64,000 bases of DNA. Origin: Balanoglossus misakiensis. Lineage: Eukaryota; Animalia; Hemichordata. Below the pieces are notes generated by a model that saw only the letters and a program-made list of their open reading frames with translations, had not been told where the DNA came from and ran no database searches. Location of the stretch: assembly GCA_040954595.2 (NCBI GenBank), contig CM082581.2:2348699-2412698 (forward strand), given 5' to 3'. A program made the position numbers and the translations under genes. Positions 6,221 through 45,539 of this stretch are shown here, piece after piece (the stretch's first letter is position 1; each line of letters opens with the position of its first letter).

Positions 6221-6369
6221 TTTATTTTATTTTCATCCAAATCAAGTCACAACAAACTGTCCTTGTAACTTTTATACTCATGTGTATCACTACAATTTCA
6301 TTTAATCTCTATATTATAAAAGTACAAGGAGAGTTTGTTGTGACTTGATTTGGATGAAAATAAAATAAA
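6221..6369. repeat. Inverted repeat, ~55 bp arms, ~40 bp loop
   Basis: tttattttattttcatccaaatcaagtcacaacaaact... mirrored by ...agtttgttgtgacttgatttggatgaaaataaaataaa. Confidence 0.8.
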
Positions 6370-11122: not shown

Positions 11123-11511
11123 ATATCAACCAGCCCCTGAGATCAAACATGGGCGACAACGCATCGCAATATAAGCCAATAAGAAAACGGATTTATGTTA
11201 TAGATTCGGACAGTGACTCTGAGTGTTAAATGTTGAGTGAACTGAGTTTCATATTTAGGGGTTGCCTGTTCAAGTGTTCACACTATATTTCATATTAAAG
11301 CTAGGACTGTTATGTTTGTAAGTTCAGTATTTCGCCGTTAAGGGCCTGGTCAGAATTAACAGGGGGGAAGGCCGGTGCGATTGGGGGGGAGGGTCACCAT
11401 TTCTCATGCAACGGTTTGGGGGAGGGCCGCTACATTTTGGGCACTTGTCAAGGGGAGGGTCACTAATTTTTGTGCAAGGATGACACCGAAAATGTTTCAA
11501 AATTTGAAGTG

Positions 11512-13086
11512 TTACAGAGAAATACTGAAAAGAGACTTGCGCTCATAGGCACTCATGTATGGATATATTGACATCCCTTGTACTACAAAATACACCACAC
11601 AACTCACAAAACGTTTCTTAGCTAGCCTCCTATTTGGTTTCTTTTTACGTTTAATACTTGTGTGCTTCATGTAATGAAAAGAAAACATTTCATGTACTTT
11701 CTGCTTCCTGTCCTTCAACTTTATTTCTAACTCTTCAATTTGCTTATTCAACTCTTCAATTAAAGTTAAACATTTGGTGTTGAAATGGACGGCACACTCG
11801 TGGCCAGATTTTATTTTTCCATTTTTTGTATAGCATTGCTGGGTATCAGAAAGAAGTTTATCTTTCTCTTGTTGAAGAGATGTTTTGATTTCTCCAACTT
11901 TATGTTCATTCTGTTCTATAATTCTGCTGTGATGAGGTTTTAAAATCTCAGAAGCAAGAATGACACCAAAAGCTGCTGGGTTGTTAGTGCTTGTCACTTT
12001 CTCCACATCATTTTGGAAGCGCTCAAATTTCATTTCCAACTCGTATTGACGCCGTCCCTCTTCATGAAACTTCTTGCAGAAGTCTCTTGTGTTTTTGCTC
12101 CACTTAAAATTTGCTGAGTAAAAGTCTGGTAAGACCCGGTTCATGAAGACTGCCCGCTTTGTTTTACCATTAGGAATATAACCATATTTAGGTTGCATCC
12201 ACGGTTTCTGCTTGCTGCTCTCACCTGCACCTGACTTGGATTGGCTGGGTTGGAGAAATGACTCCTTGCTGGGAATTGGGTGTTTCAGAATGCTCCTTTT
12301 GAACCTATTGAGTCGCTTTATTTCAATAGACAGTCCTGAAATCAATAAAAATACGGATAAAAGCTAAATGACTACATACAAGTTTACATGGGTATTTTAT
12401 GCACAAGGCAAAACATCAGTCAATATCCCAATACATGATATATGATATTTGATTTATGCATTATTACAGAAAAGCCAAATTTAATTCTTAATTGTTGTCT
12501 ATCAAACGAGTATAAAAGTATAAAAGCAGCCTGCATTTATTTCTAATATCTGTTGATGCAATTTTCAGGGATATAAATTTGAAAGAAATGGTCATCTCTA
12601 CACATTGCCACTAGCTATTGCACCTGTGATTCAGAGCACTTTTTTCCATAAAAAATAATGTACAACTAAGAATAGATGCATTTTTTTAATCGGCAGATAT
12701 TCTAGATCTAAGAGGTATATAACATTTTTCAAACTGGGTAGAAATATTGTTTATATTAAACCCCAGCTACAATTTCATCTGAGTTTTAAACGCTAAAAGC
12801 TATCGTAGACGTTACGGTAGGTGTCAAAATTAAAGTTCCGGTCAAAGTTGCAGGGCGATGCATGAAAACACACACACTGCCTGTCTGATTACAGGCAGCG
12901 ACTGACTCCGCAGCCGCAGACAGAGCTGAGATGAGATGAGATTCCACACTTACCAATATCTTTAAGGTCGTCGTCATCAACATCAACTAGATGCTTTGCT
13001 TTTTGAACACCGGCGTCTAAAAAATATTGCGTGTAATTGTGCACAATGTTGCTCTCATCAGATGTTGGCTGCTCTTCCACTGCCAT
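11512..13086 (-). CDS. Two-exon accessory gene inside the Zator-like element: SAM-like N-terminus, coiled coil, basic tail
   Basis: Exon 13086-12954 (GT donor) joins in phase to exon 12335-11512 (AG acceptor), giving YTQYFLDAGVQKAKHLVDVDDDDLKDIG|LSIEIKRL. Heptad region LIEELNKQIEELEIKLKD; KRKKKPNRR. Confidence 0.6.
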
Positions 13087-16000
13087 GATGACACTATGGA
13101 GGTACACGTGTGTAGAATGTTATGATGGTAAGTTCACCTCTTTTCCGAAAGCTCAAGATTTTAAAAAAAATATTTCACAAAACGAAAATTAAATTACATT
13201 TCAGTGATAAAAAATCACATAATACTGATTTTAATGCAAAAATGCCACCTTTGGTGTGAATGTACCAAGCGCGCGATAAATTCCCGCGATAAATACACAC
13301 GTGACCTTTTTACTGTTCAAAATCAAAATGGCTGATGTCGCTCTCGGTCCGTATTCTAAAGAAAGCGAGAAAGATCGCGTCAAGTTGACATTTTCGGAGA
13401 GGAGAAGTGCCTCGCGGAAGCAGTCCAAGGTTGATGGCGGGTACGAACGTGTATCACAACAAACGTGTAAACCGGAACAATGTGAGGAGAAGCTCGAGGC
13501 ACTCTTGGACGTGCACAGAAAAGCGCCCGAGAAACAGAAAATCGTCCAAGGCCTGCTGTATGTTGTACACCAATTGATGGTGAGAAGTGATTTTGATGGA
13601 AAGGTGAAAGGGTATTTACCCTTCAAAGATGCCTATGGACTGTATTGCGGATTTTTTGAAACTCAGCCAACTGAACATGAATTCCGTGACCAACTGCTAC
13701 ATCCTGACCACGTACTCAATGTAACAGTTGTCACACTGGCAGGGTGTAGATATATCATACTCAATAACAGTTTTGTTAGCTTTACTGATTTGTTCGTAGA
13801 ACTAGAACATGCTACAGATCGCAAAGATACTGCAAGATTTCCTTTGACAATCGAATCCCTGCATGATATCATTGCAACCATGGACACAGAGTATGATAAA
13901 TCTGTTGTGAAAGCTGTTCTTTTTGCATCAAACTCAAGAAATGACATGCATATGCTTGGAGTAAAACCAAACAGAGCTGTACAGTTTCTTTCCAAAGTGT
14001 TAGTTTCTGCAGAAGAATTCAAAAATGCCACTGAAGCAGCCCAAGATGTCATTGTTCGTAAGGTGAAGGAAAAGATTAACAAAATAGTACAGCAAATAGA
14101 AGATGTTGATGCCAGACTAGACAGTTGTAGTTTGTCTGATAAAAGAAGAAGTGATCTATGTGCAGAGAGAGATTGCTTGGAAAAACGAAAGCGGGAATTA
14201 GCATTATTGTTAACTCCAGAAGATAAAAGTAGTAGGAGACGAGCCCTGCAATCTAAGAAGCGGATCGCTCAAACATTGCTGGAAGAAAATCGGGTAAAGC
14301 GTAGAAAGCTTGGAGGAGGTGCACCTCGCCTTCTAGATACAGAGGATGAACTTTTCATCGCAAAAGCTGTTGAAGAAAAAAGTACAGCACATGGGCGAAG
14401 ACATAATATTACACTTTACTCTCACCACCGTGTTAAGAAGAGACATTTTCTGTCCCTAGCGAATTACATGCTGCTCCAAAGGGGAAAGAAATTAATCAAA
14501 TCAGCAACAACAGTTCTTAATAGAGGCCGTCCTCGAAATGTACGATCCATACAGGCAAAAGCACACATGGGGAAGTCCTTGTTTTGTGCCAGAAAGCCAC
14601 CAAAGACTGAGCTACATTCAACGGAGTCCACTCATCATCAGAGGGCACATGTGAAGAATGCTAAATTTAATATGTTTAGCGATTCGGAATGGTCAAACAG
14701 CCTTATGATCAGTATGGATGATAAAGCTTACCTAAGACCAGGAAGTGATGGTGAGTAAAATTTTGTTGATTCATGGATTAAGAGCCCAGGACAAGAAACA
14801 GTCCCTTTCCAAACAGTCTCTTCTTTCAAATAGTGAAAAACCCATATGAACTATATATCATTGGAAAGCATGAAGCTGTGTGACATGAAATGTAATCAGT
14901 TTTTGTCTTCTGTTTTGGTTTAATAGTTGGAGCAAGAGATGTTAAGAAAGGTGTAATCTATGATGTTACAAACCCGTAAAAACAGAACAAACTCCCTCAA
15001 CATGATTTTAGTACGCCTGAAGTACATGTCACTCCGACCTCATTCCGCTTCATCTCTGCCAAAACTGTAACTGTTGAAGGTAAGTGTGATTAATGCACTA
15101 GTTTGCTGAATATACTTAGTACAGATATCTAAATTGCCAAATATAAAAATCCAAAACATTGTTCACATATGTACTTCTTGTACACTTGGGAAATGAGTAA
15201 TTTAATATAGGAATTGACCAATCAGAATCAACCTGTCTTTATGAGACCTTTTTACATTATCTCCTAATTTTCTTATTCCCTTATAAGGAAATAAAGAACT
15301 TGTCAATTAAAAGGATCAAACTGTGGTGGTGATTCGACCTAAACATTTCATTGGAAGCAGTGGAAGTGTCTGGGCCTCTGACTACTTGATGTTAAGGTAA
15401 CATTCTAACAATACCAAAGTATGATTAAATTTTGAGTTTTGTATAGTTGTTGAACAGATACATATCCTGCCTTACAAATACTAAGTGTGGAGCTACTTCC
15501 ATACATTTTGGTTTGTAGGAGAGAAGAGCCTGAGCTTTTTGAGAAGCAACAAGGACATTCTTCAAATAACCAGGCTTTGAAGATTTTCTATGCACAAGTC
15601 CATGATACAGTCTTCCACTTTAAAGGTAGGTTTGCTCTGCCACTGAAGCAATTATTATTAAATACCCCAAGTCTTGTTTTTTTGCAAAAATAAATAGTTT
15701 TTGAAACAAGTAGGCAGGACAAGTCAAAACAAAAGTTTTTTTCAGTATTTTTGTTGTGTCTTTCAACTACGCTGGATCCCTGAATCATGATCAAATACCC
15801 AGTGTATAGATTCTCAACACAACCTATATGAATATAATTACCATTGTTATTGTTGTAAATTGTATTCTAATCCAGACTAGAATTCATTTGTCAACAATAA
15901 CAGTGTCATTTCACATATACAGGTTATGTTGAGAGTGAGAATACTAGGCATTTCAGCATGATCTAGAGAAACGTAAAGCTGATATACACAGATCCAAAAT

Positions 16001-17883
16001 ACTGAAAAAAATAGCCGAAGTTACATCTAATGTCCCTTTAATTAATGCATTTTATTGTACCATAGTCCCCTTTGTCAGCTAAAGAGGACAATCCTGTTGG
16101 TGATTATCCATCCTTTAGTTATGCAGTTCAATTCATGCTTTATAACTACTTTTGTTTATAGATACAACTGTACAAGAAGATGTTGAATGTGTGACAACTG
16201 ATCAAAAATGTGTATTTCGCAAATATGAAGGTGACAGGCTGGCTTGGTTGCATCATCATTTGGAGCAGGCATGGACAAGATTGGATGAATATCTGAAAAG
16301 AAGACAGGAGGAGAGTTCATCAGATTTGCTAGAGCCAGTGAAACAGCTTATCCAAAATGCAGAGTCACTGCTGGGAGAAATAAGGTGCATTTGTAAAATT
16401 ATTTAATGAGTTCAGTCATTGGCTCTGTTATCGAACCCTGATGTTGAATATCACAGCAAAACATTACTGTCAGATTTCCCTTTTTGGAAAAATGGAACTA
16501 TCGCTTTTAGTCACTTTTGAATGCTTATCTTATTTGTTATCTTTTACATTTCAGGACCATTAACAAAGATGCCCTTTTTGTTGGTTTGACTGGCTTGATT
16601 GACATATGTGATATTATCATACAGAAGCTCTCTTTTGTTCAAGCACCTATGTATGGCAATATTCTCAAGACGACTGATGCAGGACCAGGTGTTGGTGTCA
16701 GCAATGTGGAAGTGAGATATAGAGATGCTGAACTTATACGAATTCATGGAACTGACCGCATGATACGACTACACAGAGCACCTGGGGATTCTGGTCAAAA
16801 TGAGGCAGAAAGATCAAATGCTGCAATAGGTAAGCAGTAGGGCTACTCCGGAATTAAAATGTTGTGCACAGACTACTGTAGTGTTCCATTGAAAACATAT
16901 GCGCAAGAAGTCATGTGATAACAGTACAAAGATATACGCGTTTGTGAGTGCATACATAGGAGTACATGCATTTCTGTGGACGTTTTACAACACATTGGTT
17001 TGTTTGTACCGTGGTGCATATTTGAAATCCGGTTTTCACCTGTTGTGGAATACTATTCTGTAGCGTATTCATTTGCATATAGGCCTATAGGCCTTATTCA
17101 CTGTCTTTTTATATCAGGCTCTTAATTATTTTGTATTTCTCTTGAAACATAGGAGAAGCTCTTGTTGATGGAACAGCCCTGAAGTGGGATTATCATTAAC
17201 CCTATGAGAACATGACAAGGGATGAAAAAACAGCCTAACAATTGACCAGACAAAAGAACTGGAGAAAACTTGCATGGAGAAAAATGTATGGCATGTGTCT
17301 AAAGAGGTACAGATGAGGATAGATGATGAACCAGGGCCAGCTGGTGATTACATGAAGAGATACATCACTGCTAGAAAAGGTGTAGTGTTAATTCTTGATA
17401 AATACTAGAATGTCTTTTAATGCTGCACACATTCCATGGACTCAAATGTTCACTTCTTTTGGGATTATAAACTAAACTAATTCCATGTTTACCTCTGCTT
17501 TGTTCAACTTCCTTAGGTAAAGCTGTTGCACACATGATATATATTTGAAGAAACAAAACTCAGAAAAGTGGCAAATGTAATACTGCTGTACATGACATTT
17601 CTGCATGTCCATTTTCTTCCAGACAACCAGTTCTTTTTCAACACCAAGTACCTGTCAGCCTGTGCATCGACTAGTTCACATTTAAAAAGAATGGAATTAC
17701 CTGGTCATGGTTATTTTCATCGTCTAGAACAGTTTATGCAGGACCACTTTTATGTTGGTGAAATGTTCTTGGAGTACTTGAAGGGGAGCTGTTTACAGTC
17801 TACTGGTAGAGTATTTCATATTTACATTCATATTTTTTAATTAGTAATATTGTAAATTCTTGACTGTTTTGAAAAACAATCAT

Positions 17884-18104
17884 TAGGGCCCAAGCGCAAG
17901 CAAGCGCTTGGGCCCTATTGGTTTCGTTGGAATTTTTACGGGCCCAAGCCAAGCCAGGCTTGGGCCCGTATTGGTTTCGTTGGGGTTTTTTACGGGCCCA
18001 AGCCAAGCCAGGCTTGGGCCCGTATTGGTTTCGTTGGGGTTTTTCTTTCTTTACGGGCCCAAGCCAAGCCAGGCTTGGGCCCGTATTGGTTTCGTTGGGG
18101 TTTT

Positions 18105-18136
<32 letters not shown>

Positions 18137-21100
18137 TAGGGCCCAAGCGCAAGCAAGCGCTTGGGCCCTATTGGTTTCGTTGGGTTTTTTTACGGGCCCA
18201 AGCCAAGCCAGGCTTGGGCCCGTATTGGTTTCGTTGGAATTTTACTTTCTTTCTTTCTTTATTCTTGTGTCAATTCTTTGACCCACGAGATCTCAGACAC
18301 CGCTGCAGGTACACTTCTGAAACTTGCTACAGTGGTCAAGGTCAATGAGTAGTCGTGCATTGAACCCTTGAATTTTTAATTAGTCACATGACCTGGCGGC
18401 CATCTTGGATTTTCTGAAAAAATGCAAATCTCAGATCTCAGAAACTACAAGTCAGATCGACTTCAAATTTGGCATGCTGGTAGACTACCTTCTTGCAATC
18501 ATTTTTGTAATTGGAAATTATACTGACAAAGTTGCAATTTTTTGCTACAATTTTTATTCTGAAATCTGGCTTAAATTTCAAAAATCTTCTTCTCCAGAAC
18601 CAGTGATAACCGAGTCACGCGGTTTGGGGTATGTGGTCACCTAACTGATGTCTATCAAGTTTGCGAAGATCATTGTGATTGGTTGAAGATTATGGCAGCC
18701 ATATTGGATTTTCGAAAAACCATAGTAAAATTTCAAAAATCTTCTTCTCAAGAACCGGCGATAACTGAGTCACAAGATTTGGTGTGTGTGGTCATTAAAC
18801 AGATGTCTATCAAGTTTGCGAAGAGGAATGTGATTGGTCGAAGATTATGGCGGCCATATTGGATTTTGTGAAAAACGATTAAAAAGTAAAAATTCCCTTT
18901 CTAGCCTTAAAATTGATAGCACAGAAATTCTTTTTACGGATATGAATCATCATATGCCAAGAATAAGCTATAAATATTTTGGTAATTTTGGCAATGACCT
19001 TTGACCTACTTTTGACGCATGATTTTTCTGCATATCTAATTCCAGGCTAACCAATAGGGCTATAAGTTTGGTTTTTGATGTATGTGGATTTGTATGTGAT
19101 CAAAAAATTTTGCTACTTTTCATGACCCCTTTGACCTCTGGTGACCTCATTAAATATGCACATACCTAATTACAGATGAACCAATAGACCTAGAAGTTTT
19201 GTTTTTGTTATACATGGACCAGTATGGGGTCAAAATATTTTGCCCAAATTTTGGGTGACCTCGGGTGACCTTTGACCTACTTTTGCATATCTTGACATCC
19301 ACAGCAGATACAGCCTTGGCGTTTGGAGGTATGGGGCAATAATGAAAAGCCAAAGTTTTGGGTCACCTGTGATACCTGCTTAACTCATTAATTATGTGCA
19401 TACCTAATTCTAGGCTAACCTAAAGGGCTAGAGGTCTGTTTTTTGATGGACATGGACCACTATGGGTCAAAATTTTCTGCCCAAATTTTGGATGACCTCA
19501 GATGACCTTTGACCTACTTTTGCATATCTTGACATCCACAGCAGATACAGCCTTGGCGTTTGGAGGTATGGGGCCATAATGAAAAGCCAAAGTTTTGGGT
19601 CACCTGTGACACCTGCTTAACTCATTAATTATGTGCATACCTAATTCTAGGCTAACCAAAAGGGCTAGAGGTCTGTTTTTTGATGGACATGGACAACTAT
19701 GGGTCAAAATTTTCTGCCCAAATTTTGGATGACCTCAGATGACCTTTGACGTACTTTTGCATATCTCGGCATCCAAAGCAGGTACAGCCTTGTCATTTGG
19801 AGGTATGGGGCCATAATGAAAAGCCAAAGTTTTGGGTCACCTGTGACACCTGCTTTACGCATTATGTATGTGCATACCTAATTCCAGGCTAACCAAAAGG
19901 GCTAGAGGTCTGGTTTTTGTTGGACATGGACCACTATGGGTCAAAATTTTCTGCCCAAATGTTGGGTGACCTTTGACCTACTTAACACTTTAACAGCACC
20001 AAACATACATATAACCTTGATATTTCATGGGATAAAACAGCATTATGTTTCTACTCATTAATTATGTGCATATCTAATATCAGATCAGATAATAGAGCTT
20101 GGGCCCGGACAATGCTGCTTGCAGCTTTAATCTTTCTTTCTTTCTTTCTTTCTTTATTCTCCTGTCCATTTTTTATCGCTCTAGATCTCAGACACCGCTG
20201 CAGGTACAGTTCTCAAACTTGCTACAGTGGTCAAGGTCAATGAGTAGTCGTGCATTGAACCCATGAATTTTTAATTAGTCACGTGACATGGCGGCCATAT
20301 TGGATTTTCTGAAAAAATGCAAATCTCAGATCTCAGAAACTACAAGTCAGATTTACTTCAGATTTGGCGTGCTGGTAGTGTACCCTCTGCCCATCATTTT
20401 TGTAATTGGATATTTTGCTGTCAATGTTGCAGTTTTTTTGCTACAGTTGTTTTTCTGAAATCTGGTCAAAATTTCAAAAATCTTCTTCTCCAGAACCGGT
20501 GATAACCGAGTCACGCGGTTTGGGGTATGTGGTCACCTAATTGATGTCTATCAAGTTTGCGAAGATCATTGTGATTGGTCGAAGATTATGGCGGCCATAT
20601 TGGATTTTTGAAAAACCATAGTAAAACTTCAAAAATCTTCTTCTCCAGAACGGGCGATAACTGAGTCGCAAGATTTGGGGAGTATGGTCACTATACTGAT
20701 GTCTATCAAGTTTGCAAAGACCATTGTGATTGGTCGAAGATTATGGCGGCCATATTGGATTTTGTAAAAAGCAGTGAAAAATTAAAATTCCTTTTTCTAG
20801 TATAAAAATTAATAGCATACAAATTCTTTTTATGGATATCAATCGTCATATGACTACAATATGTTACAAATTTTTGGCGATTTTTCACTTGACCTACTTT
20901 TCACACATTATTATTTCTGCATATCTAATTCCAGGCTAACCTATAGGGCTAGACGTTTGGTTTTTGATGCATGTGGATTAGTGTGTGATCAAAAAAATTT
21001 GCTACTTTTCATCACCCCTTTGACCTCTGCTGACCTCATTAATTATGTGCATAGCTAATTACAGGCGAACCAATAGAGCTAGGGGTTTGGTTTTTGTTGA

Positions 21101-24100
21101 ACATGGACCAGTATGGGGTCAAAAATTTTTGCCCAAATGTTGGGTGAACTCTGGTGACCTTTGACCTACTTTCGCATATCTCAGCATCCAGAGCAGATAC
21201 AGCCTTGGCATTTGGCAGGATGGGAGGTAAATGTAAAGCCAAATTTTTGGGTCACCTGTGACACCTGCTGACCTCATTTAATATGCACATACCTAATTAC
21301 AGGCGAACCAATAGAGCTAGAGTTTTGGTTTTTGTTGGACATGGACCAGTATGGGTAAAAAAAATTGCCCAAATGTTGGGGTACCTCAGGTGACCTTTGA
21401 CCTACTTCACCCTATTTCAGCAGCAAAAATACACACATCCCTGTTATGTCATGAGATATTACATCCGATATTAAATTTTGTTTATTCTCATTCATACTGT
21501 GCATATATAATTCAAGATCAGCGCTTGGGCCCGACAATGCTGCTCGCAGCTTTAATTATTCTTGGTTCACTTCTTTCGCGCTCTAGATCTCAGACACCGC
21601 TGCAGGTACAGTTCTCAAACTTGCTACAGTGGTCAAGGTCAATGAGTAGATGTGCAGTGACTTGTGAATACTTAATTAGTCACGTGACATGGCGGCCATA
21701 TTGGATTTTCTGAAAAAATGCAAATCTCAGATCTCAGAAACTACAAGTCAGATCGAGTTCAGATTTGGCGTGCTGGTAGTATACCCTCTGCCCATCATTT
21801 TTGTAATTGGATATTTTGCTGTCAATGTTGCAGTTTTTTTGCTACAGTTGTTTTTCTGAAATCTGGTCAAAATTTCAAAAATCTTCTTCTCCAGAACCGG
21901 CGATAACCGAGTCACGCCGTTTGGGGTATGTGGTCACCTAACTGATGTCTATCAAGTTGCGAAGATCATTGTGATTGGTCGAAGATTATGGCGGCCATAT
22001 TGGATTTTCGAAAAACCATAGTAAAACTTCAAAAATCTTCTTCTCCAGAACGGGCGATAACCGAGTCACAAGATTTGGTGTGTGTGGTCATTAAACAGAT
22101 GTCTATCAAGTTTGCGAAGGGGAATGTGATTGGTCGAAGATTATGGTGGCCATATTGGATTTTGTGAAAAACGATTAAAAAGTAAAAATTCCTTTTCTAG
22201 CCTAAAAATTGATAGCACAGAAATTCTTTTTATGGATATGAATCATCATATGACAAGAATAAGCTGTAAATATTTTGGTAATTTTGGCAATGACCTTTGA
22301 CCTACTTTTGACGAATCATTTTTCTGCATATCTAATTCCAGGCTAACCAATAGGGCTATAAGTTTGGTTTTTGATGTATGTGGATTTGTATGTGATCAAA
22401 AAATTTTGCTACTTTTCATGACCCCTTTGACCTCTGGTGACCTCATTAAATATGCGCATACCTAATTACAGATGAACCAATAGACCTAGAGGTTTTGTTT
22501 TTGTTATACATGGACCAGTATGGGGTCAAAATATTTTGCCCAAATGTTGGGTGACCTCGGGTGACCTTTGACCTACTTTTGCATATCTCGGCATCCAAAG
22601 CAGGTACAGCCTTGGCATTTGGAGATATGGGGCCATATTGAAAAGCCAAAGTTTTGGGTCACCTGTGACCTCTGCTGACCTCATTTATTATGTGCATAGC
22701 TAATTACAGGCGAACCAATAGAGCTAGAGGTCTGGTTTTTGTTGGACATGGACCACTATGGGTCAAAATTTTCTTGCCCAAATTTTGGGTGACCTCAGAT
22801 GACCTTTGACCTACTTTTGCATATCTCGGCATCCAAAGCAGGTACAGCCTTGGCATTTGGAGATATGGGGCCATAATGAAAAGCCACAGTTTTGGGTCAC
22901 CTGTGACACCTGCTTAACTCATTATTTATGTGCATACCTAATTCCGGGCTAACCAAAAGGGCTAGAGGTCTGGTTTTTTGTTGGACATGGACCACTATGG
23001 GTTAGAATTTTCTGCCCAAATTTTGGGTGACCTCGGGTGACCTTTGACCTACTTTTGCATATCTCGACATCCACAGCAGATACAGCCTTGGCGTTTGGAG
23101 GTATGGGGCCATAATGAAAAGCCAAAGTTTTGGGTCACCTGTGACACCTGCTTAACTCATTATTTATGTGCATACATAATTCCGGGCTAACCAAAAGGGC
23201 TAGAGGTCTGGATTTTGTTGGACATGGACCACTATGGGTCAAAATTTTCTGCCAAAATTTTGGGTGACCTCAGATGACCTTTGACCTACTTTTGCATATC
23301 TCGGCATCCAAAGCAGGTACAGCCTTGGCGTTTGGAGGTATGGGGCCATAATGAAAAGCCAAAGTTTTGGGTCACCTGTGACACCTGCTTAACTCATTAT
23401 TTATGTGCATACCTAATTCCGGGCTAACGAAAATGGCTAGAGGTCTGGTTTTTGTTGGACATGGACCACTATGGGTCAAAATTTTCTGCCAAAATTTTGG
23501 GTGACCTCAGATGACCTTTGACCTACTTTTGCATATCTCGGCATCCAAAGCAGGTACAGCGTTGGCATTTGGAGGTATGGGGCCATAATGAAAAGCCAAA
23601 GTTTTGTGTCACCTGTGACACCTGCTTTACTCATTATTTATGTGCATACCTAATTCCGGGCTAACCAAAAGGGCTAGAGGTCTGGTGTTTGTTGGACATG
23701 GACCACTAGGGTCAAAATATTCTGCCCAAATTGTGGGTGACCCCTGGGTGACCTTTGACCTACTTAACACTATATCAGCACCAAACATAGATATAACCTT
23801 GATATTTTATTGGATAAACACAGCATTATGTTTCTACTCATTAATTATGTGCATATCTAATAATCAGATCAGATAATAGAGCTTGGGCCCGGACAATGCT
23901 GCTTGCAGCTTTAATTCTTTCTTTATTCTTGGTTCATTTCTTTCGCGCTCTAGATCTCAGACACCGCTGCAGGTACACTGCTCAAACTTGCTACAGTGGT
24001 CAAGGTCAATGAGTAGATGTGCAGTGACTTGTGAATACTTAATTAGTCACGTGACATGGTGGCCATATTGGATTTTCTGAAAAAATGCAAATCTCAGATC

Positions 24101-27100
24101 TCAGAAACTACAAGTCAGATTGACTTCAGATTTGGCGTGCTGGTAGTATACACTCTGCCCATCATTTTTGTAATTGGCTATTTTGCTGTCAATGTTGCAG
24201 TTTTTTTGCTACAGTTGTTTTTCTGAAATTTGGTCAAAATTTCAAAAATCTTCTTCTCCAGAACCGGCGATAACCGAGTCACGCCGTTTGGGTTATGTGG
24301 TCACCTAACTGATGTCTATCAAGTTTGCGAAGATCATTGTGATTGGTCGAAGATTATGGCGGCCATATTGGATTTTCGAAAAACCATAGTAAAACTTCAA
24401 AAATCTTCTTCTCCAGAACAGGCGATAACCAAGTCACAAGATTTGGTGTGTGTGGTCATTAAACAGATGTCTATCAAGTTTGCGAAGGGGAATGTGATTG
24501 GTTGAAGATTATGGCGGCCATATTGGATTTTGTGAAAAATGATTAAAAAGTAAAAATTCCCTTTCTGGCCTAAAAATTGATAGCTCAGAAATTCTTTTTA
24601 TGGATATGAACCATCATATGACAAGAATAAGCTATAAATATTTTGGTAATTTTGACAATGACCTTTGACCTACTTTTGACGCATCATTTTTCTGCATATC
24701 TAATTCCAGGCTAACCAATAGGGCTATAAGTTTGGTTTTTGATGTATGTGGATTTGTCTGTGATCAAAAAAATTGGACACTTTTCATGACCCCTTTGACC
24801 TCTGGTGACATCATTAAATATGCACATACCTAATTAAAGATGAACCAATAGACCTAGAGGTTTTGTTTTTGTTATACATGGACCAGTATGGGGTCAAAAT
24901 ATTTTGCCCAAATGTTGGGTGACCTCGGGTGACCTTTGACCTACTTAACACTATATTAGCATCAGATCAGATAATAGAGCTTGGGCCCGGACAATGCTGC
25001 TTGCAGCTTTAATCTTTCTTTCTTTCTTTCTTTATTCTTGGTTCATTTCTTTCGCGCTCTAGATCTCAGACACCGCTGCAGGTACACTGCTCAAACTTGC
25101 TACAGTGGTCAAGGTCAATGAGTAGATGTGCAGTGACTTGTGAATACTTAATTAGTCACGTGACATGGTGGCCATATTGGATTTTCTGAAAAAATGCAAA
25201 TCTCAGATCTCAGAAACTACAAGTCAGATTGACTTCAGATTTGGCGTGCTGGTAGTATACACTCTGCCCATCATTTTTGTAATTGGCTATTTTGCTGTCA
25301 ATGTTGCAGTTTTTTTGCTACAGTTGTTTTTCTGAAATTTGGTCAAAATTTCAAAAATCTTCTTCTCCAGAACCGGCGATAACCGAGTCACGCCGTTTGG
25401 GTTATGTGGTCACCTAACTGATGTCTATCAAGTTTGCGAAGATCATTGTGATTGGTCGAAGATTATGGCGGCCATATTGGATTTTCGAAAAACCATAGTA
25501 AAACTTCAAAAATCTTCTTCTCCAGAACAGGCGATAACCAAGTCACAAGATTTGGTGTGTGTGGTCATTAAACAGATGTCTATCAAGTTTGCGAAGGGGA
25601 ATGTGATTGGTTGAAGATTATGGCGGCCATATTGGATTTTGTGAAAAATGATTAAAAAGTAAAAATTCCCTTTCTGGCCTAAAAATTGATAGCTCAGAAA
25701 TTCTTTTTATGGATATGAACCATCATATGACAAGAATAAGCTATAAATATTTTGGTAATTTTGACAATGACCTTTGACCTACTTTTGACGCATCATTTTT
25801 CTGCATATCTAATTCCAGGCTAACCAATAGGGCTATAAGTTTGGTTTTTGATGTATGTGGATTTGTCTGTGATCAAAAAAATTGGACACTTTTCATGACC
25901 CCTTTGACCTCTGCTGACATCATTAAATATGCACATACCTAATTAAAGATGAACCAATAGACCTAGAGGTTTTGTTTTTGTTATACATGGACCAGTATGG
26001 GGTCAAAATATTTTGCCCAAATGTTGGGTGACCTCGGGTGACCTTTGACCTACTTAACACTATATTAGCATCAGATCAGATAATAGAGCTTGGGCCCGGA
26101 CAATGCTGCTTGCAGCTTTAATTAGGGCCCAAGCGCATACCAGCGCTTGGGCCCTTTTGGTTTCGTTGGGGTTTTTCAGTCTTTCTTTCCTTCTTTATTC
26201 TTGGTTCCATTTTTCGGCCACCTAAATCTCAAAAACTGCAGCACCAACCAGGCTGAAACTTGGTAGGCAGATAGGGGCCAATGAGTAGATGTGCAGTGGC
26301 TCGTGAATATTTAATTAGTCACGTGACCTGGCGGCCATATTGGATTTTCTGAAAAAATGCAAATCTCAGATCTCAGAAACTACAAGTCAGATTGACTTCA
26401 AATTTGGTGTGCAGCTAGTATACCTTATGCCCATCATTTTTGTAATTGGATATTATGCTGTCAATGTTGCAGTTTTTTTGCTACAGTTGTTTTTCTGAAA
26501 TCTGGTCAAATTTTCAAAAATCTTCTTCTCCAGAACCGGCGATAACCGAGTCACGCCATTTGAGGTATGTGGTCACCTAACTGATGTCTATCAAGTTTGC
26601 GAAGATCATTGTGATTGGTCGAAGATTATGGCGGCCATATTGGATTTTCGAAAAACCTTAGTAAAACTTCAAAAATCTTCTTCTCCAGAACGGGCGATAA
26701 CCGAGTCACAAGATTTGGTGTGTGTGGTCATTAAACAGATGTCTATCAAGTTTGCGAAGGGGAATGTGATTGGTCGAAGATTATGGCGGCCATATTGGAT
26801 TTTGTGAAAAACGATTAAAAAGTAAAAATTCCCTTTCTAGCCTAAAAATTGATAGCACAGAAATTCTTTTTATGGATATGAATCATCATATGACAAGAAT
26901 AAGCTATAAATATTTTGGTAATTTTTGCAATGACCTTTGACCTACTTTTGACGCATCATTTTTCTGCATATCTAATTCCAGGCTAACCAATAGGGCTATA
27001 AGTTTGGTTTTTGATGTATGTGGATTTGTATGTGATCAAAAAATTTTGCTACTTTTCATGACCCCTTTGACCTCTGCTGACCTCATTAAATATGCACATA

Positions 27101-30100
27101 CCTAATTACAGATGAACCGATAGACCTAGAGATTTTGTTTTTGTTATACATGGACCAGTATGGGGTCAAAATATTTTGCCCAAATGTTGGGTGACCTCGG
27201 GTGACCTTTGACCTACTTTTGCATATCTCGACATCCACAGCAGATACAGCCTTGGCATTTGGAGGTATGGGGCCATAATGAAAAGCCAAAGTTTTGGGTC
27301 ACCTGTGACACCTGCTTTACTCATTATTTATGTGCATACCTAATTCCGGGCTAACCAAAATGGCTAGAGGTCTGGTTTTTGTTGGACATGGACCACTATG
27401 GGTCAAAATGTTCTGCCCAAATTGTGGATGACCCCTGGGTGACCTTTGATGTTTCTACTCATTAATTATGTGCATATCTAATAATCAGATCAGATAATAG
27501 AGCTTGGGCCCGGACAATGCTGCTTGCAGCTTTAATCTTTCTTTCTTTCTTTCTTTATTCTTGGTTCATTTCTTTCGCGCTCTAGATCTCAGACACCGCT
27601 GCAGGTACAGTTCTCAAACTTGCTACAGTGGTCAAGGTCAATGAGTAGATGTGCAGTGACTTGTGAATACTTAATTAGTCACGTGACATGGCGGCCATAT
27701 TGGATTTTCTGAAAAAATGCAAATCTCAGATCTCAGAAACTACAAGTCAGATCGACTTCAGATTTGGCGTGCTGGTAGTATACCCTCTGCCCATCATTTT
27801 TGTAATTGGATATTTTGCTGTCAATGTTGCAGTTTTTTTGCTACAGTTGTTTTTCTGAAATCTGGTCAAAATTTCAAAAATCTTCTTCTCCAGAACCGGC
27901 GATAAACGAGTCACGCCGTTTGGGGTATGTGGTCACCTAACTGATGTCTATCAAGTTTGCGAAGATCATTGTGATTGGTCGAAGATTATGGCGGCCATAT
28001 TGGATTTTCGAAAAACCATAGTAAAACTTCAAAAATCTTCTTCTCCAGAACGGGTGATAACCGAGTCACAAGATTTGGTGTGTGTGGTCATTAAACGGAT
28101 GTCTATCAAGTTTGCGAAGGGGAATGTGATTGGTCGAAGATTATGGCGGCCATATTGGATTTTGTGAAAAACGATTAAAAAGTAAAAATTCCTTTTCTAG
28201 CCTAAAAATTGATAGCACAGAAATTCTTTTTATGGATATGAATCATCATATGACAAGAATAACCTATAAATATTTTGGTAATTTTGGCAATGACCTTTGA
28301 CCTACTTTTGACGAATCGTTTTTCTGCATATCTAATTCCAGGCTAACCAATAGGGCTATAAGTTTGGTTTTTGATGTATGTGGATTTGTATGTGATCAAA
28401 ACATTTTGCTACTTTTCATGACCCCTTTGACCTCTGGTGACCTCATTAAATATGCGCATACCTAATTAATGATGAACCAATAGACCTAGAGGTTTTGTTT
28501 TTGTTATACATGGACCAGTATGGGGTCAAAATATTTTGCCCAAATGTTGGGTGACCTCGGGTGACCTTTGACCTACTTAACACTATATTAGCATCAGATC
28601 AGATAATAGAGCTTGGGCCCGGACAATGCTGCTTGCAGCTTTAATTACGGGCCCAAGCCAAGCCAGGCTTGGGCCCGTATTGGTTTCGTTGGAATTTTTA
28701 GGGCCCAAGCGCAAGCCAGCGCTTGGGCCCTATTGGTTTCGTTGGGGTTTTTCTGTCTTTCTTTCTTTCTTTCTTCTTTCTTTCTTTATTCTTATGTCAA
28801 TTCTTTGTCGCTCTAGATCTCAGACACCACTGCAGGTACAGTTTTCAAACTTGCTACAGTGATCAAGGTCAATGAGTAGTCGTGCATTGAACTCATGAAT
28901 TTTTAATTAGTCACGTGACCTGGCGGCCATATTGGATTTTCTGAAAAAATGCAAATCTCAGATCTCAGAAACTACAAGTCAGATCGACTTCAAATTTGGC
29001 GTGCAGGTAGACTACCTTCTGTCAATCATTTTTGTAATTGGAAATTATGCTGGCAAAGTTGCAGTTTTTTTGCTACAATTTTTTTTCTGAAATCTGGCTT
29101 AAATTTCAAAAATCTTCTTCTCCAGAACCGGCCATAACCGAGATACGGGGTTTCGGGTATGTGGTCACCTAACTGATGTCTATCAAGTTTGCGAAGATCA
29201 TTGTGATTGGTCGAAGATTATGGCGGCCATATTGGATTTTCGAAAAACGCTAGTAAAATTTCAAAAATCTTCTTCTCAAGAACCGGCGATAACTGAGTCA
29301 CAACATTTGGTGTGTGTGGTCATTAAACAGATGTCTATCAAGTTTGTGAAGGGGAATGTGATTGGTCGAAGATTATGGCGGCCATATTGGATTTTGTGAA
29401 AAACGATTAAAAAGTAAAAATTCCCTTTCTAGCCTAAAAATTGATAGCACAGAAATTCTTTTTATGGATATGAATCATCATATGCCAAGAATAAGCTATA
29501 AATATTTTGGTAATTTTGGCAATGACCTTTGACCTACTTTTGACGCATCATTTTTCTGCATATCTAATTCCAGGCTAACCAATAGGGCTATAAGTTTGGT
29601 TTTTGATGTATGTGGATTTGTATGCAATCAAAAAATTTCGCTACTTTTCATGACCCTTTTGACCTCTGCTGACCTCATTAAATATGCGCATACCTAATTA
29701 CAGATGAACCAATAGACCTAGAGGTTTGGTTTTTGTTGGACATGAACCAGTATTGGGTCAAATTTTTTTGCCCAAATGTTGGGTGACCTCGGATGACCTT
29801 TGACCTACTTTTGCATATCTCGACATCCACAGCAGATACAGCCTTGGCGTTTGGAGGTATTGGGCCATAATGAAAAGCCAAAGTTTTGGGTCACCTGTGA
29901 CACCTGCTTAACTCATTATTTATGTGCATACCTAATTCCGGGCTAACCAAAAGGGATAGAGGTCTGGTTTTTGTTGGACATGGACCACTATGGGTCAAAA
30001 TTTTCTGCCCAAATTGTGGGTGACCTCTGGGTGATCTTTGACCTACTTAACACTATATCAACACCAAACATAGATATAACCTTGATATTTCGTGGGATAA

Positions 30101-33046
30101 AACACAGCATTATGTTTCTACTCATTAATTGTGTGCATATCTAATAATCTGATCAGATAATAGAGCTTGGGCCCGGACAATGCTGCTTGCAGCTTTAATT
30201 CTTTCTTTATTCTTATGTCAATCTTTGCTCTCCTAGATCTCTGAAACGGCTACAGGTACACTTCTCAAACTTGCTACAGTGGTCAAGGTCAATGAGTAGA
30301 TGTGCAGTGGCTTGTGAATATTTAATTAGTCACGTGACCTGGCGGCCATATTGGATTTTCTGAAAATCTTTAAATGGCTTCCTCTCAAAAACCACAGGGC
30401 CAATCAAGTTCAAATTTGGTGTATGGTACACATGTCCTCTGCCCTTTAAAGTTTGACAATAAAATCCTGAGCGGTCACATGACTTTGGCCGCCATATTGG
30501 ATTTTCCAAAAAGTACAGTAAAATCTTCAAAAATCTTCTTCTCCAGAACCGGCAATAACCGAGTCATGGGATTTAGGGTATGACATCACCTAACTGATGT
30601 CTATCAAGTTTGCGAAGAGCGTTGTGATTGGTCGAAGATTATGGCGGCCATATTGGATTTTGTAAAAACCAGTGAAAATTAAGAAATCATTTTTCTAGTC
30701 TAAAAATAGATAGCATACAAATTCTTTTTGTGGATATGAGTCGTCATATGACTAGAATATGTTGCAAATTTTTTGGCAATTTTCACATGACCTTTGACCT
30801 ACTTTTTTAAGAACATGCATATATGCATATATAGCTCATACTACATGTTCTAAATGTACCAGAGTTCTGATTTTTGTGCACATTGGTATCACCCCTGCCA
30901 GGACCTACCCCAAATATTTTGGTAATTTTGGCAATGACCTTTGACCTACTTTTGACACATCGTTTTTTCTGCATATCTAATTCCAGGCTAACCTATAGGG
31001 CTATCATTTTGGTTTTTGATGTATGTGGATTTGTATGTGATCAAAAAATTTCGCTACTTTTCATGACCCCTTTGACCTCTGCTGACCTCATTAAATATGT
31101 GCATACCTAATTACAGATGAACCAATAGACCTAGAGGTTTGGTTTCTGTTGGACATGGACCAGTATTGGGTCAAAAATTTTTGCCCAAATGTTGGGTGAC
31201 CTCGGGTGACCTTTGACCTACTTTTACATATCTCGACATCCACAGCAGATACAGCCTTGGCGTTTGGAGGTATGGGGCCATAATGAAAAGTCAAAGTTTT
31301 GGGTCACCTGTGACACCTGCTTAACTCATTATTTATGTGCATACCTAATTCCGGGCTAACCAAAAGGGCTAGAGGTCTGGTTTTTGTTGGACATGGACCA
31401 CTATGGGTCAAAATTTTCTGCCCAAATTTTGGGTGACCTCAGATGACCTTTGACCTACTTAACACTATATCAGCACCAAACATAGATATAACCTTGATAT
31501 TTCATGGGATAAAACACAGCATTATGTTTCTACTCATTAATCATGTGCATATCTAATAATCTGATCAGATAATAGAGCTTGGGCCCGGACAATGCTGCTT
31601 GCAGCTTTAATTCTTTCTTGCTTTCTTTCTTTCTTTCTTTATTCTTGTGTCAATTCTTCGGCCAACTAAATCTCTGAAACTTCTGCAGGTACACTGCTCA
31701 AACTTGCTACAGTGGTCAAGGTCTATGAGTAGATGTGCAGTGACTTGTGAATACTTAATTAGTCACGTGACCTGGCGGCCATATTGGATTTTCTGAAAAA
31801 ATTCAAATCTCAGATCTCAGAAACTACAAGTCAGATCGACTTCAAATTTGGCATGCAGGTAGACTACCTTCTACCCATCATTTTTGTAATTGGAAATTTT
31901 GCTACAGTGTTGCAGTTTTTTGCTACAATTTTTTTTCTGAAATCTGGCTTAAATTTCAAAAATCTTCTTCTCCAGAACCGGTGATAACCGAGACACGGGG
32001 TTTGGGGTATGTGGTCACCTAACTGATGTCTATCAAGTTTGCGAAGATCATTGTGATTGGTCGAAGATTATGGCGGCCATATTGGATTTTCGAAAAACCA
32101 TAGTTAAACTCCAAAAATCTTCTTCTCCAGAACGGGCGATGACTGAGTCGCAAGATTCGGGGAGTATGGTCACTACACTGATGTCTATCAAGTTTGCAAA
32201 GAACATTGTGATTGGTCGAAGATTATGGCGGCCATATTGGATTTTGTAAAAAGCAGTGAAAAATTGAAATTCCTTTTTCTAGTCTAAAAATTGATAGCAT
32301 ACAAATTCTTTTCATGGATATCAATCGTCATGTGACTAAAATATGTTACAATTTTTTGGCGATTTTTCACATGACCTTTGACCTACTTATCACACGTTAT
32401 TATTTCTGCATATCTAATTCCAGGCTAACCTATAGGGCTAGACGTTTGGTTTTTGATGAATGTGGATTAGTGTGTGACCAAAATATTTTGCTACTTTTCA
32501 TGACCCCTTTGACCTCTGCTGACCTCATTAATTATGTGCATAGCTAATTACAGGCGAACCAATAGAGCTAGAGGTTTGGTTTTTGTTGGACATGGACCAG
32601 TATGGGATCAAAATTTTTTGCCCAAATGTTGGGTGACCTCTGGTGACCTTTGACCTACTTTCGCATTTCTCAGCATCCAGAGCAGATACTGCCATGGCAT
32701 TTGACAGGATGGGACCAAAATTTAAAGCCACATTTTTGGGTCACCTGTGACACCTGCTGACCTCATTAAATATGCACATAGCTAATTACAGGCGAACCAA
32801 TAGAGCTAGAGTTTTGGTTTTTGTTGGACAAGGACCAGTATGGGTCAAAAAAAAATTCCCAAATGTTGGGTGACCTCAGGTGACCTTTGACCTACTTCAC
32901 CCTATTTCAGCAGCAAAAATACACACATCCTTGATATGTCATGAGATAATACATCCGATAGAAAATTCTGTTTCTTCTCATTCATACTGTGCATATATAA
33001 TTCAAGATCAGCGCTTGGGCCCGACAATGCTGCTCGCAGCTTTAAT
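17884..33046 (+). mobile_element. Nested stack of 9-10 Helentron-associated non-autonomous elements (HINE/DINE-1-like)
   Basis: 5' stem-loop GGGCCCAAGC..GCTTGGGCCC, then TATTGGTTTCGTTGG, a (TTTC)n microsatellite, internal ~120 bp and ~240 bp tandem repeats, 3' subTIR GCTTGGGCCC and terminal hairpin GCTGCT[T/C]GCAGC-TTTAAT. Insertion at T|T without TSD. Confidence 0.85.
23916..26122 (+). repeat. Near-identical tandem pair of HINE bodies, period 1109 bp
   Basis: Identical ORFs at 24230 and 25339. The copies differ in TTTC tract length and at least one base (ctctggtgac vs ctctgctgac). Confidence 0.9.
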
Positions 33047-35559
33047 TAAAAATGTTTTTGTGTTAAAAGGTTACTGAAATTTTGCGAGATTATTGTCAAT
33101 TGAATGTTTGCATTCTGAGTTTACCTCAGTACAGAAATTACCTGTTCTGTAGCAATATATGGCATTTCACATTATATTGAGTTACATTTCATACAGTGAA
33201 ATTCAATATTTATTGATTCAATGTTTACTCAATGATATTTCCTGTGTTCACTCAATAGTCTGTGTCCAAGTATGCATAGACAGTTTTAGTGCATCATATA
33301 AATACTATTCATTGAATGAGGATTGTGAATGTCACCAAATGCTGGTATGATCCCTTGTGTGTGAGTCTGTGCTCACAATGTTGTATTCTTTCAGGCAAAG
33401 TATGTGAATACTGTGCTCAAGGAGGATTTGACCCTGACCTTCAAAGAATCCCTTGCCCAATGCCAGACAAACACAGGCTACCAGACTTTCACTATTTGGA
33501 TCCGTGCGCTACACCATTAATAACAGATGATGATAATGTCAGAGAAATTGATGATTTTCATCCAAGGGTACAGCTTAAACGGCAATTTGCAGCAGGTATG
33601 TTAGGTTCAAAATACACCTGTGACCATAGTTTATCAATGTGTTTTCTTATACTTGACTGAATAGTGCAAAAGCCATATCAGGTTGGCCATCTTGTCAGGC
33701 TAATTTCTATGCATGCATTATTTTAGAGTTAAATTAACCTATGTTATTGCCTTATTTTCTATATTTTATTGAGTCAGGAGAAATTTTCAAATGACAAGAA
33801 TGAGAAAGTGAAAGAGTTCTCAGAAAGGTTCATAGTGAAGGAGCCGCTTGTACGGAGATACATAGAGCATCTCCAACATCTGAAGGAAATGCAAGAAAAA
33901 CGAAAGAATCAAAACATACAACAGACAAGAGAAGAGCTTCAGAAGGACTATGTAGATATTGACTGGCTAAATCTGTATGAAAGTGGCCAAATACAAAAGC
34001 AGAAAGTGACTGTGCTGGACAAGTACATTGTAGCAAAAAATCTAGGAGACATCAAAAGAATGAAAAAAAAATGGAGAAAGTAAGACTCATTAATGCAAGT
34101 ATAGCACAGGTTTTCTTGCAAGGGGACAAAACTAGTGTGACAAGAGATGAAGAGCCAGCTGATGAAGAGTCAGATGGAGAGGATGACTCGGAGACGCATG
34201 ATGGTACTGATTCTGATATTGACACAGAAGATGATATGGTGCTCGCTGAAATTGGAGAATCCTCAGACAGTGACACAGAACAACCTGAACAACCTGTGCT
34301 GCTTAGTCGTTATGGAAGGAGGACAACAGCCTACTGGAGAAGACAGTTTTTTTGGGATTGAAGACTGTAAATAATTTCTTAAGGGAAGGGGAGCACAGTA
34401 CGATATTTTACCCACAATTCTCCATGATTTGTATCATCGAGGTTGTCCATTTAATAACTTTTTCTGTTTTAGATACTAACAATGATATGAAGTACATATA
34501 ACTATTTATCTAGGAAAAGTACGTTGAAGAACGAGAGTGGAAATTTCAAAATCAATATTTAAAAGCCATAGGAATCAAAGTATTCATGTATTGCAAATGT
34601 CACACTTTGGAGGAAACAAGCAAATAACTAACTGAGGTGTATTTAATAGTGGTCTACAATTTTCTGTACACATGTGAACATTGCCTGGTTTGACTGAGTA
34701 ATCTCTGATTGTACAAATCAGAATGAATCATCAGATATTGTGGGGAGGGTCACTTGATTTTGTTCATGGAGAAGGGGGAGGGTCAGCATTTTTTGTGCAA
34801 GAAATCGGTGGAGGGTCAGTATTTTTCATGCATGCAGATTTTGAATCCACCGGCCTCCCCCCCCCCCCTGTTAATTCTGACCAGGCCCTAACCATTTTAA
34901 AAATGAAAACAAAAATACCATTTAATACACTTTGAATGTTTATTATAAATTTCATAAAATTGCTTCAAGACATTGCCAATAAATCAAGTTATCACTATAT
35001 ACACTGTACTCACTTCTTGTCCTGTCTACCCTATCTTTCATCTTCTCACTTGAAAACTTTCCTAAACTGCTAAAATATCCAGATTGCATTTGTAGATGCA
35101 TGGGAATGATCGAGTCCAAATTAACTGCATTTTACGCGCTGAAAAAACAGCTGATCACTGGAAAGCAGGTCATGCAGCGCAGACGCTCTATGGACCGCAA
35201 GATTACTCTGAAGGGTCGTCCATGTTTCTACTTTCGAATATTAGACATGATTTTCTTTCAAAGCTAATATCTGAGTCTACTGGTCGTATACACACACTAT
35301 GAATAAAACACAACAGTGTTTTGAAATCTACAAAGACAGTTCAATGATAAAAACTCTCAGTGTTAAATTCCCAATTGAACCCCTCTAAATTAATGGTATA
35401 GCCCTTACGAGGGCTGATATCACTAGGTGATACGGTCGACGTCAACTCACAACTCAATCATATCAGTATGATTACGCCAATAAAACGAATGGGAAATTAT
35501 AGATTTATATCGTTTTTGCTGCTTATTTCGGCGATTCCAAACGCAAACAGTCAAAGCAT

Positions 35560-45255: not shown

Positions 45256-45539
45256 AGCAACACAACGACATAGAAATCCCAATTTTCGAAAACGAAGATA
45301 AAATCGGATTTTGTATGGAAAAACTCATTATCAATGTCAGCCTAAACAAAAATTACGAAATTCCTTTGAAAAAAACCCATGGTTGTCAAAGGGAAATTTT
45401 GAAATTGATTTTTCAATGGAAAAGTGCATAAATGTTACATTAAAGACCCTCATTAATATTTTTATTGAATAAAAAACTAACTTTGAGCGATGCTAAATTT
45501 GATTTGACTTTTTTCAACAGAAAAACGAGCGCAGTTTAA

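What the first reader, a model, noticed from the sequence alone, without database searches (positions are those of the whole stretch)
17884..33046. Matryoshka stack: HINE elements repeatedly inserted into each other's T/TTTC tract, closing like balanced parentheses
Seen: this is not a simple tandem array. Six 5' heads are stacked with no bodies (about 17884 type A, 17937 B, 17991 B, 18052 B, 18137 A, 18191 B), and three more lie at about 26123, 28646 and 28699. Ten 3' tails end near 20131 (B), 21556 (A), 23915, 25013, 26122, 27536, 28645, 30199, 31611 (all B) and 33046 (A). Type A heads (GGGCCCAAGCGCAAGCAAGCGC) match the only two GCGCTTGGGCCCGACAATGCTGCTCGCAGC tails in last-in-first-out order: head 5 with tail 2, head 1 with tail 10. 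The microsatellite is split complementarily: head 4 keeps a long (TTTC)n and its body resumes at 21557 with none, while heads cut early resume with a long tract. There are nine heads and ten tails; the extra body is probably the 1109 bp duplicate, or else 27537-28645 lost its head. Known: Helentron/HINE elements insert at TT without TSD. Inference: these elements prefer a site ~50-80 bp inside their own 5' end, always in the same orientation and up to six levels deep. That would be a self-homing safe harbour, possibly through Rep binding to the resident head hairpin, and it records insertion order.
Basis: partly seen in the sequence, partly recalled or inferred. Interest (0 to 1): 0.88.

Follow-up and report, generated by a model that had tools for sequence, protein, structure and literature searches.

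The report
Rolling-circle transposons stacked inside each other
Nine small non-coding jumping elements sit nested up to six deep, each splitting the same short T-rich spot just inside the front end of another copy, which likely means this family prefers to land in itself, a habit already proposed for related fungal elements.

Summary
Confirmed. Window 17883-33045 holds 9 heads and 10 tails of a HINE-type (non-autonomous Helentron) family that parse as brackets, six deep. All six head-in-head cuts lie 53-85 bp inside a head, in the T-run/(CTTT)n linker; none lies in 14.4 kb of T-rich bodies. Last-in-first-out rejoining restores an in-phase linker every time; head 3 plus body 4 aligns without gaps to a solo copy at 55733-56891. 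A contig from sequencing data joins the two outer flanks directly: TT target, no duplication. The same run shows head-in-head junctions absent from this window. The extra body is a near-exact duplicate (1 difference). A simple model needs about 10-20% or more of insertions to hit an existing head. Not shown: the genome-wide rate, the assembled order in long reads, and whether the head hairpin (Rep binding) or the microsatellite alone attracts insertions. Same orientation follows from the T-strand target and is not extra evidence. Self-insertion at the 5' end is already proposed for Fusarium Helitrons (up to five 5' ends), and this scan noted the same stacks in three windows of other genomes. 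A clean variant of a known habit.

The parts
11342..34888 (+). Host TIR DNA transposon (23,547 bp with the stack, 8,384 bp without); perfect 26-bp TIRs, TAA on both sides; carries a multi-exon gene of unknown family
   Evidence: empty-site contig at depth 304 against 37-58 for two unique-flank contigs suggests several copies
17806..33394 (+). Predicted GT-AG intron holding the stack (426 bp without it); flanking exons read in one open frame
17883..33045 (+). Whole nested stack, 15,163 bp, inserted at a TT without duplication
17883..17935 (+). Head 1 (A type), cut at 53 bp; pairs with body 10
   Evidence: 14-bp hairpin, -19.1 kcal/mol, z -5.9
17936..17989 (+). Head 2 (B), cut at 54 bp; pairs with body 7 or body 5
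17990..18050 (+). Head 3 (B), cut at 61 bp; pairs with body 4
   Evidence: rejoined unit 1159 bp, gapless to the solo copy, first 100 bases identical
18051..18135 (+). Head 4 (B), cut at 85 bp near the end of the microsatellite; pairs with body 3
18136..18189 (+). Head 5 (A), cut at 54 bp; pairs with body 2
18190..20130 (+). Element 6, intact and innermost (B head, B tail; 155-bp x2 and 237-bp x3.5 repeats)
20131..21555 (+). Body 2 with A tail
21556..23914 (+). Body 3 with B tail (237-bp x5.6)
23915..25012 (+). Body 4 with short B tail
25013..26121 (+). Body 5: the extra body, 1 difference from body 4, with the linker start and length of body 7
26122..27535 (+). Element 7, intact (A-like head, B tail), joined tail-to-head to the copy before it
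27536..28644 (+). Body 7 with short B tail; with head 2 it differs from the solo copy at 13 of 1159 aligned bases
28645..28697 (+). Head 8 (B), cut at 53 bp; pairs with body 9
28698..30198 (+). Element 9, intact (A-like head, B tail)
30199..31610 (+). Body 9 with B tail; divergent 5' half (19-26% from the other bodies overall)
31611..33045 (+). Body 10 with A tail, closes head 1
55733..56891 (-). Solo intact copy (1159 bp, B head, short B tail), T on both sides; natural reference for the uncut linker

Best explanation
The block is a stack of non-coding HINE-type elements in which each copy interrupts another copy 53-85 bp inside its 5' end without target duplication, and it was likely built by repeated rolling-circle insertion that prefers the T-rich linker next to a resident head hairpin. 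Shown: nesting, cut positions, TT target, no duplication (about 0.9). Inferred: a family-wide preference of roughly 10-20% of insertions or more (about 0.75). Inferred and untested: a RepHel transposase supplied in trans binds a resident head, its normal start site, unwinds the top strand, and so exposes the first T-tract behind the hairpin as a single-stranded target for an incoming circle (about 0.45). The extra body likely arose later by unequal exchange between bodies 4 and 7 (about 0.5); loss of one 54-bp head from the head tandem is the main alternative.
For: Bracket parse and offsets 53, 54, 61, 85, 54, 53. All 7 last-in-first-out joins tried give an in-phase linker; 4 of 5040 assignments fit all three features. 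Rejoined units match the solo copy. Empty outer site in a contig, 29 of 30 letters matching the right flank. The linker holds 1-11% of TT/TTT/TTTT sites in four intact copies, yet takes 6 of 6 head-in-head cuts (at most about 2e-6 by my arithmetic on the largest fraction); bodies offer 1728 same-strand TT, 97 runs of 5+ T in 14,404 bases and take none. Bodies differ by 3-26% (except 4/5), so donors were independent. Two junction motifs in run X1 are absent from the window, and tail-to-head joins appear in X1 (3 contigs) and X4 (1). Simulation gave no stack of 9+ copies and depth 6+ at f up to 0.05 for N 2,000-50,000. HUH nucleases act on single-stranded DNA and circles are intermediates (PMC5876387, passages).
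Against: The linker microsatellite is the only pure pyrimidine tract of 12+ bases in the element, and a model that ignores the head was not rejected (P of no insertion into headless tracts 0.21-0.48). No (TTTC)3+ tract exists outside elements in the window as a control. The founder and the solo copy sit at ordinary TT sites, so a head is not required. Heads 7 and 9 are A-like with B tails, and element 9 breaks the linker-marker rule. No genome was held; read tables were cut (9 of 26 loose-end rows, 10 of 299 pieces shown), so no rate was measured and no listed contig bridged flank to head 1. The window was picked for being odd. No RepHel frame was found in the window. Helraiser, a Helitron1, shows no local hopping (PMC4778049).
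Confidence: 0.55

Rival explanations
1. Same nesting, but the target is the sequence itself: a T-run plus (CTTT)n pyrimidine tract. The element carries its own preferred target, and the hairpin and Rep binding play no part.
For: The linker is the only long pyrimidine tract in the element; 2 of 6 cuts lie inside the microsatellite; HINEs prefer T-rich sites (PMC4067079, PMC7492417); microsatellite targeting builds TE clusters in plants (PMC5907723); model not rejected.
Against: 4 of 6 cuts lie in the T-run at 53-54 bp, before the microsatellite; no headless tract behind a tail is cut internally (expected 0.7-1.3, weak); the founder inserted at a plain TT in A-rich sequence.
Confidence: 0.3
2. 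No family-wide preference: this locus is a local hot spot or a survivor, with insertions tolerated because it is an intron of a multicopy transposon.
For: One window, selected for oddness; the host is a TIR transposon intron; 47,680 non-element bases carry only two insertions.
Against: A regional hot spot would also hit the 14.4 kb of bodies; other head-in-head junctions exist in run X1.
Confidence: 0.08
3. Not insertion: heads amplified by slippage as a 54-bp tandem and headless bodies by rolling-circle or unequal exchange, or the block is a mis-assembly.
For: Heads 2-4 are identical over 54 bp; bodies 4 and 5 are near-identical; the order was not confirmed in reads.
Against: Complementary microsatellite phase at every junction, A/B and marker pairing in bracket order, nine distinct bodies, exact empty site. 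It may explain only the extra body.
Confidence: 0.05

Closest known systems
HINE / DINE-1 non-autonomous Helentrons (PMC4067079, passages; oyster Cg_HINE, PMC7492417, passages)
   Same: 5' subTIR plus inverted repeat, microsatellite, internal tandem repeats, 3' subTIR and short palindrome, TT target, no duplication, variable T number at the ends.
   Different: The passages read report T-rich targets and clustering, not repeated insertion into the element's own linker. The 3' subTIR ends 23-24 nt from the end here against 38-60 in mite HINEs.
Fusarium FoHeli non-canonical Helitrons with multiple 5' termini (PMC5148889, passages and section 10; PMC13342296, passages)
   Same: Stacked 5' ends of 31-85 nt, up to five per copy, in 8 of 15 longer copies of one isolate, ascribed to self-insertion. 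Closest precedent.
   Different: There several heads share one 3' end after chimeric transposition; here each head keeps its body and tail in place, so target base and nesting order can be read. Animal-type element with a microsatellite. Their supplements were not read and may give cut positions.
Xenopus HelenXT233 with two left termini (PMC11417382, passages); maize Helitrons with multiple termini (PMC3288121, passages)
   Same: Double heads from two subfamilies; multiple termini explained by nesting; insertion near or inside other Helitrons.
   Different: No fixed target site or balanced deep stack described in the passages read; maize elements are Helitron1.
SaTar microsatellite-targeted MULEs (PMC5907723, passages)
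   Same: Clusters of unrelated donors built by microsatellite targeting; about 30% of copies linked.
   Different: Cut-and-paste class, external microsatellite, explicitly non-nested.

Membership tests
HINE (non-autonomous Helentron / HLE2) | 5' subterminal inverted repeat a few bases from the end, with an adjacent inverted repeat | tested here: met
   subTIR starts 3-4 nt from the end; 14-bp hairpin, z -5.9 and -6.2
HINE (non-autonomous Helentron / HLE2) | Complementary 3' subTIR | tested here: met
   10-12 bp, ending 23-24 nt before the end in the 5 tails printed; motif in all 11 tails
HINE (non-autonomous Helentron / HLE2) | Short palindrome near the 3' end | tested here: met
   5-bp arms 5 nt from the end; folding is weak and no better than shuffles (z about +1)
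HINE (non-autonomous Helentron / HLE2) | Microsatellite after the left module; internal tandem repeats | tested here: met
   (CTTT)n linker; 155-bp and 237-bp repeats
HINE (non-autonomous Helentron / HLE2) | Insertion at TT with no target duplication (empty-site test) | tested here: met
   outer empty site in a contig; rejoined head 3 and body 4 equal the solo copy over the first 100 bases
HINE (non-autonomous Helentron / HLE2) | No coding capacity | tested here: met
   no frame of 150+ codons in the stack except one across the head tandem; no Rfam match
HINE (non-autonomous Helentron / HLE2) | Autonomous RepHel(-endonuclease) partner with the same ends | not testable with these tools
   no genome held; 0 of 22 long frames in the window carry recalled Rep or helicase motifs
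Helitron1 (HLE1) | 5'-TC and CTRR-3' ends, no inverted repeats | tested here: not met
   ends are TTA(C)GGG and TTTAA with subTIRs
MITE (cut-and-paste) | Terminal inverted repeats flanked by a target duplication | tested here: not met
   repeats are subterminal and asymmetric; no duplication

The most novel reading that the evidence does not exclude
Helentron-type elements carry a built-in landing pad: transposase bound to a resident head hairpin directs a tenth to a third of new copies into a fixed spot 53-54 bp downstream, across subfamilies and across animal lineages. This would be the first programmable site preference in eukaryotic rolling-circle transposons and would give dated insertion series.
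Probability: 0.35. Interest if true: 0.75.

Novelty: new variant of a known kind. Interest (0 to 1): 0.5.

Why it matters
How HLE2/Helentron elements choose targets is known only as 'TT in T-rich DNA'. Balanced stacks give the exact cut base for each event and a partial order of subfamily activity, and they offer a direct explanation for the multiple 5' termini seen in Fusarium and Xenopus. If the head hairpin guides insertion, a short cassette could aim a rolling-circle transposase, and the test is simple. Practical point: such stacks inflate introns (426 bp to 15.6 kb here) and are read as head satellites plus truncated copies by repeat annotation.

Tried and rejected
No whole genome was available, so the genome-wide count was not possible. 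Collection scans for head or tail motifs found 0 in metagenomes, 0 in viral contigs, 0 in prokaryote genomes and 1 locus, L001, a lone tail-like end with no nesting. Laying four runs on the solo copy showed a very repetitive family in X1 and X2 (2877 and 5737 contigs; 50 each in X4 and X5) but the head was not covered, so no junction count came from it. X4 did not cover the left flank; that proves nothing. Tree shape against a random-head model was borderline (P 0.049 for both features, 0.10-0.11 each) and the window is selected, so it is not used. Headless-tract test had no power. Inner-versus-outer age could not be tested without a consensus; bodies are mosaics. Rfam: 0 matches. Pfam: 0 families for the 8 host frames scanned; a second Pfam batch of 20 other frames did not run. 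Atlas hits for the host protein were under 0.9, leads only. Simple slippage between tails 3 and 4 was rejected for the extra body because it predicts a 1098-bp period and a different linker start. PMC12001565 and PMC13085455 (passages) held nothing on linker self-insertion.
Full report
Observation. Defining the element from TTA(C)GGG to GCAGCTTTAA, there are 9 heads and 10 tails between 17883 and 33045, and they parse as ((((()))))()). No other piece of the family lies in the window and no piece inside the stack is reversed, apart from the self-complementary head hairpins.

Anatomy. Each head is a 14-bp hairpin (z about -6 against 200 shuffles) followed by a short spacer, a T-run and (CTTT)n. 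Bodies carry 155-bp and 237-bp tandem repeats. Tails carry the complementary subTIR, a 5-bp palindrome that folds weakly, and TTTAA. There is no coding frame of note and no Rfam match. This fits the HINE description in PMC4067079 and PMC7492417 (passages). The autonomous partner could not be sought: no genome is held.

Test of nesting. The six head-in-head cuts lie at 53, 54, 61, 85, 54 and 53 bp. Rejoining in last-in-first-out order gave an in-phase linker in 7 of 7 joins tried (five fixed pairs and both candidates for head 2). Of 5040 assignments of six cut heads to seven headless bodies, 72 keep the phase, 8 also match A/B type, and 4 also match a linker-to-body marker; the bracket order is among the 4. 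These features were chosen after looking, and two intact elements break them (heads 7 and 9 are A-like with B tails; element 9 breaks the marker rule). Head 3 plus body 4 is 1159 bp, aligns to the solo copy without gaps (33 mismatches) and is identical over the first 100 bases; head 2 plus body 7 has 13 mismatches and one more repeat unit. Bodies differ by about 3-26% apart from pair 4/5, so they came from different donors.

Empty site. Five runs from two studies hold the region or part of it; X1 and X2 may be the source sample and are not independent. In X1 a 956-bp contig covers the left flank and continues with letters that match the right flank at 29 of 30 positions. The whole 15,163 bp is therefore an insertion at a TT with no duplication. 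The site is in a predicted 426-bp GT-AG intron of a gene inside a DNA transposon with perfect 26-bp TIRs and TAA on both sides (Harbinger-like ends by recall, no Pfam family). The contig's depth, 304 against 37-58 for two unique-flank contigs, suggests several host copies, though the tool warns that depth is not copy number. No listed contig bridged the flank to head 1, so the assembled order is not confirmed by reads.

Is the site preferred? The linker holds 1-11% of the TT, TTT or TTTT sites in four intact copies yet takes 6 of 6 head-in-head cuts; the two further events (elements 7 and 8) sit at the same linker junctions. The 14,404 body bases hold 1728 same-strand TT and 97 runs of five or more T and show no insertion; 47,680 other bases with 9,975 TT sites show two. 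Plain T-richness does not explain this. In X1, a loose end and a joint show linker-to-head junctions whose motifs are absent from the window; a third contig crosses a head-to-head junction after a different flank but with only 23 letters on one side, below the tool's bridging threshold. Tail-to-head joins appear in 3 X1 contigs and 1 X4 contig, and heads with other flanks in 8 X1 contigs. Only 9 of 26 loose-end rows and 10 of 299 pieces were shown, so this is presence, not a rate. A preferential-attachment simulation (each new copy hits a random head with probability f) gave no stack of 9+ copies and depth 6+ at f up to 0.05 for 2,000-50,000 copies, 0-0.3 at f 0.1, 0.05-8 at 0.2 and 3-55 at 0.33. 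This assumes no local hot spot and an unknown copy number.

Mechanism. Shown: nesting, offsets, TT target, no duplication. From established work on Helraiser, a Helitron1: the HUH domain acts on single strands, the plus strand moves, circles form (PMC5876387, PMC4778049, passages). Inferred: transposase bound at a resident head opens the top strand and exposes the first T-tract behind the hairpin, which would fix the offset. The rival is that the T-run plus microsatellite is itself the preferred sequence; it is the only pure pyrimidine tract of 12+ bases in the element. My test did not separate the two: no headless tract is cut internally, but 0.7-1.3 were expected and P(0) is 0.21-0.48. Same orientation is expected under both, since the T-tract is on one strand. 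A safe-harbour benefit is untested.

The extra body. Bodies 4 and 5 differ at 1 base; body 5 has the linker start and length of body 7 but differs from it at 33 positions, the first at base 75. An unequal exchange within those first 74 bases, between a copy where bodies 4 and 7 were adjacent and one carrying element 7, gives exactly this. The alternative is that body 5 belongs to head 2, body 4 is a sister copy, and a tenth 54-bp head was lost from the head tandem or collapsed in assembly. Long reads would decide.

Prior art. Ten full-text searches found no paper describing a balanced deep stack or a fixed linker target in animal HINEs; the library lacks most subscription journals. They did find the habit: FoHeli copies repeat the first 31-85 nt, ascribed to self-insertion, with one three-copy case in Metarhizium (PMC5148889, passages and section 10); FoHeli1 copies have up to five 5' termini, 8 of 15 longer copies in one isolate (PMC13342296, passages); Xenopus HelenXT233 has two left termini (PMC11417382, passages); maize Helitrons with multiple termini arise by nesting (PMC3288121, passages). 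No supplements were read; those of the two Fusarium papers may give cut positions. Three earlier notes of this scan report the same stacks in other genomes; they are unchecked leads, and one pointed me to the frog and maize papers.

Verdict. Real, cleanly parsed, and more than T-richness predicts. It is a HINE by every end feature tested. Self-insertion at the 5' end is a known proposal for fungal relatives; the added value is the intact bracket record and the exact target. Novelty: new variant of a known kind. Interest 0.5.

Noticed in passing
window 11342-34888: Host DNA transposon with perfect 26-bp TIRs, TAA on both sides and a multi-exon gene with no Pfam family; a weak Atlas lead to DDE_Tnp_ISAZ013 (score 0.76, 16% of members).
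   Followed up: partly
window 54816-63616, minus strand: LTR retroelement with RT, RNase H, integrase and a Baculo_F-like env frame; the solo HINE copy lies within the env-like region. Described only.
   Followed up: partly
window 20131-33045: Bodies are mosaics: body 2 resembles B bodies over part of its 5' half and body 10 in its 3' half; body 9 has a strongly divergent 5' half. Heads 7 and 9 are A-like with B tails.
   Followed up: partly
window 43407-45258: A different repeat starting with the same 10-base subTIR word, with long direct repeats of about 500-bp period at 86-91% identity; possibly another HINE-like family.
   Followed up: no
window 45613-45903, 47185-47346, 54279-54381: 37/75-bp and 38-bp minisatellites, the 38-bp one at two separate places.
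   Followed up: no
window 4712-5338; 6221-6369; 15736-16011: Long imperfect palindromes (634 bp at 89%, 150 bp at 83%, 284 bp at 70%).
   Followed up: no
window 530-2940 and 10418-11119: YqaJ plus DDE_Tnp_4 frames, and a DUF3504/phage-integrase frame; a similar-looking pair at 49356-51971 was not scanned.
   Followed up: partly
runs X4 and X5 against window 13200-19200: A second sample under another organism label holds 63% of the region's words but only 50 contigs of the HINE, one with a tail-to-head join. Unexplained.
   Followed up: partly
L001 905-933, minus strand: A metagenome contig with a related tail motif followed by ordinary T-rich sequence, no nesting.
   Followed up: yes
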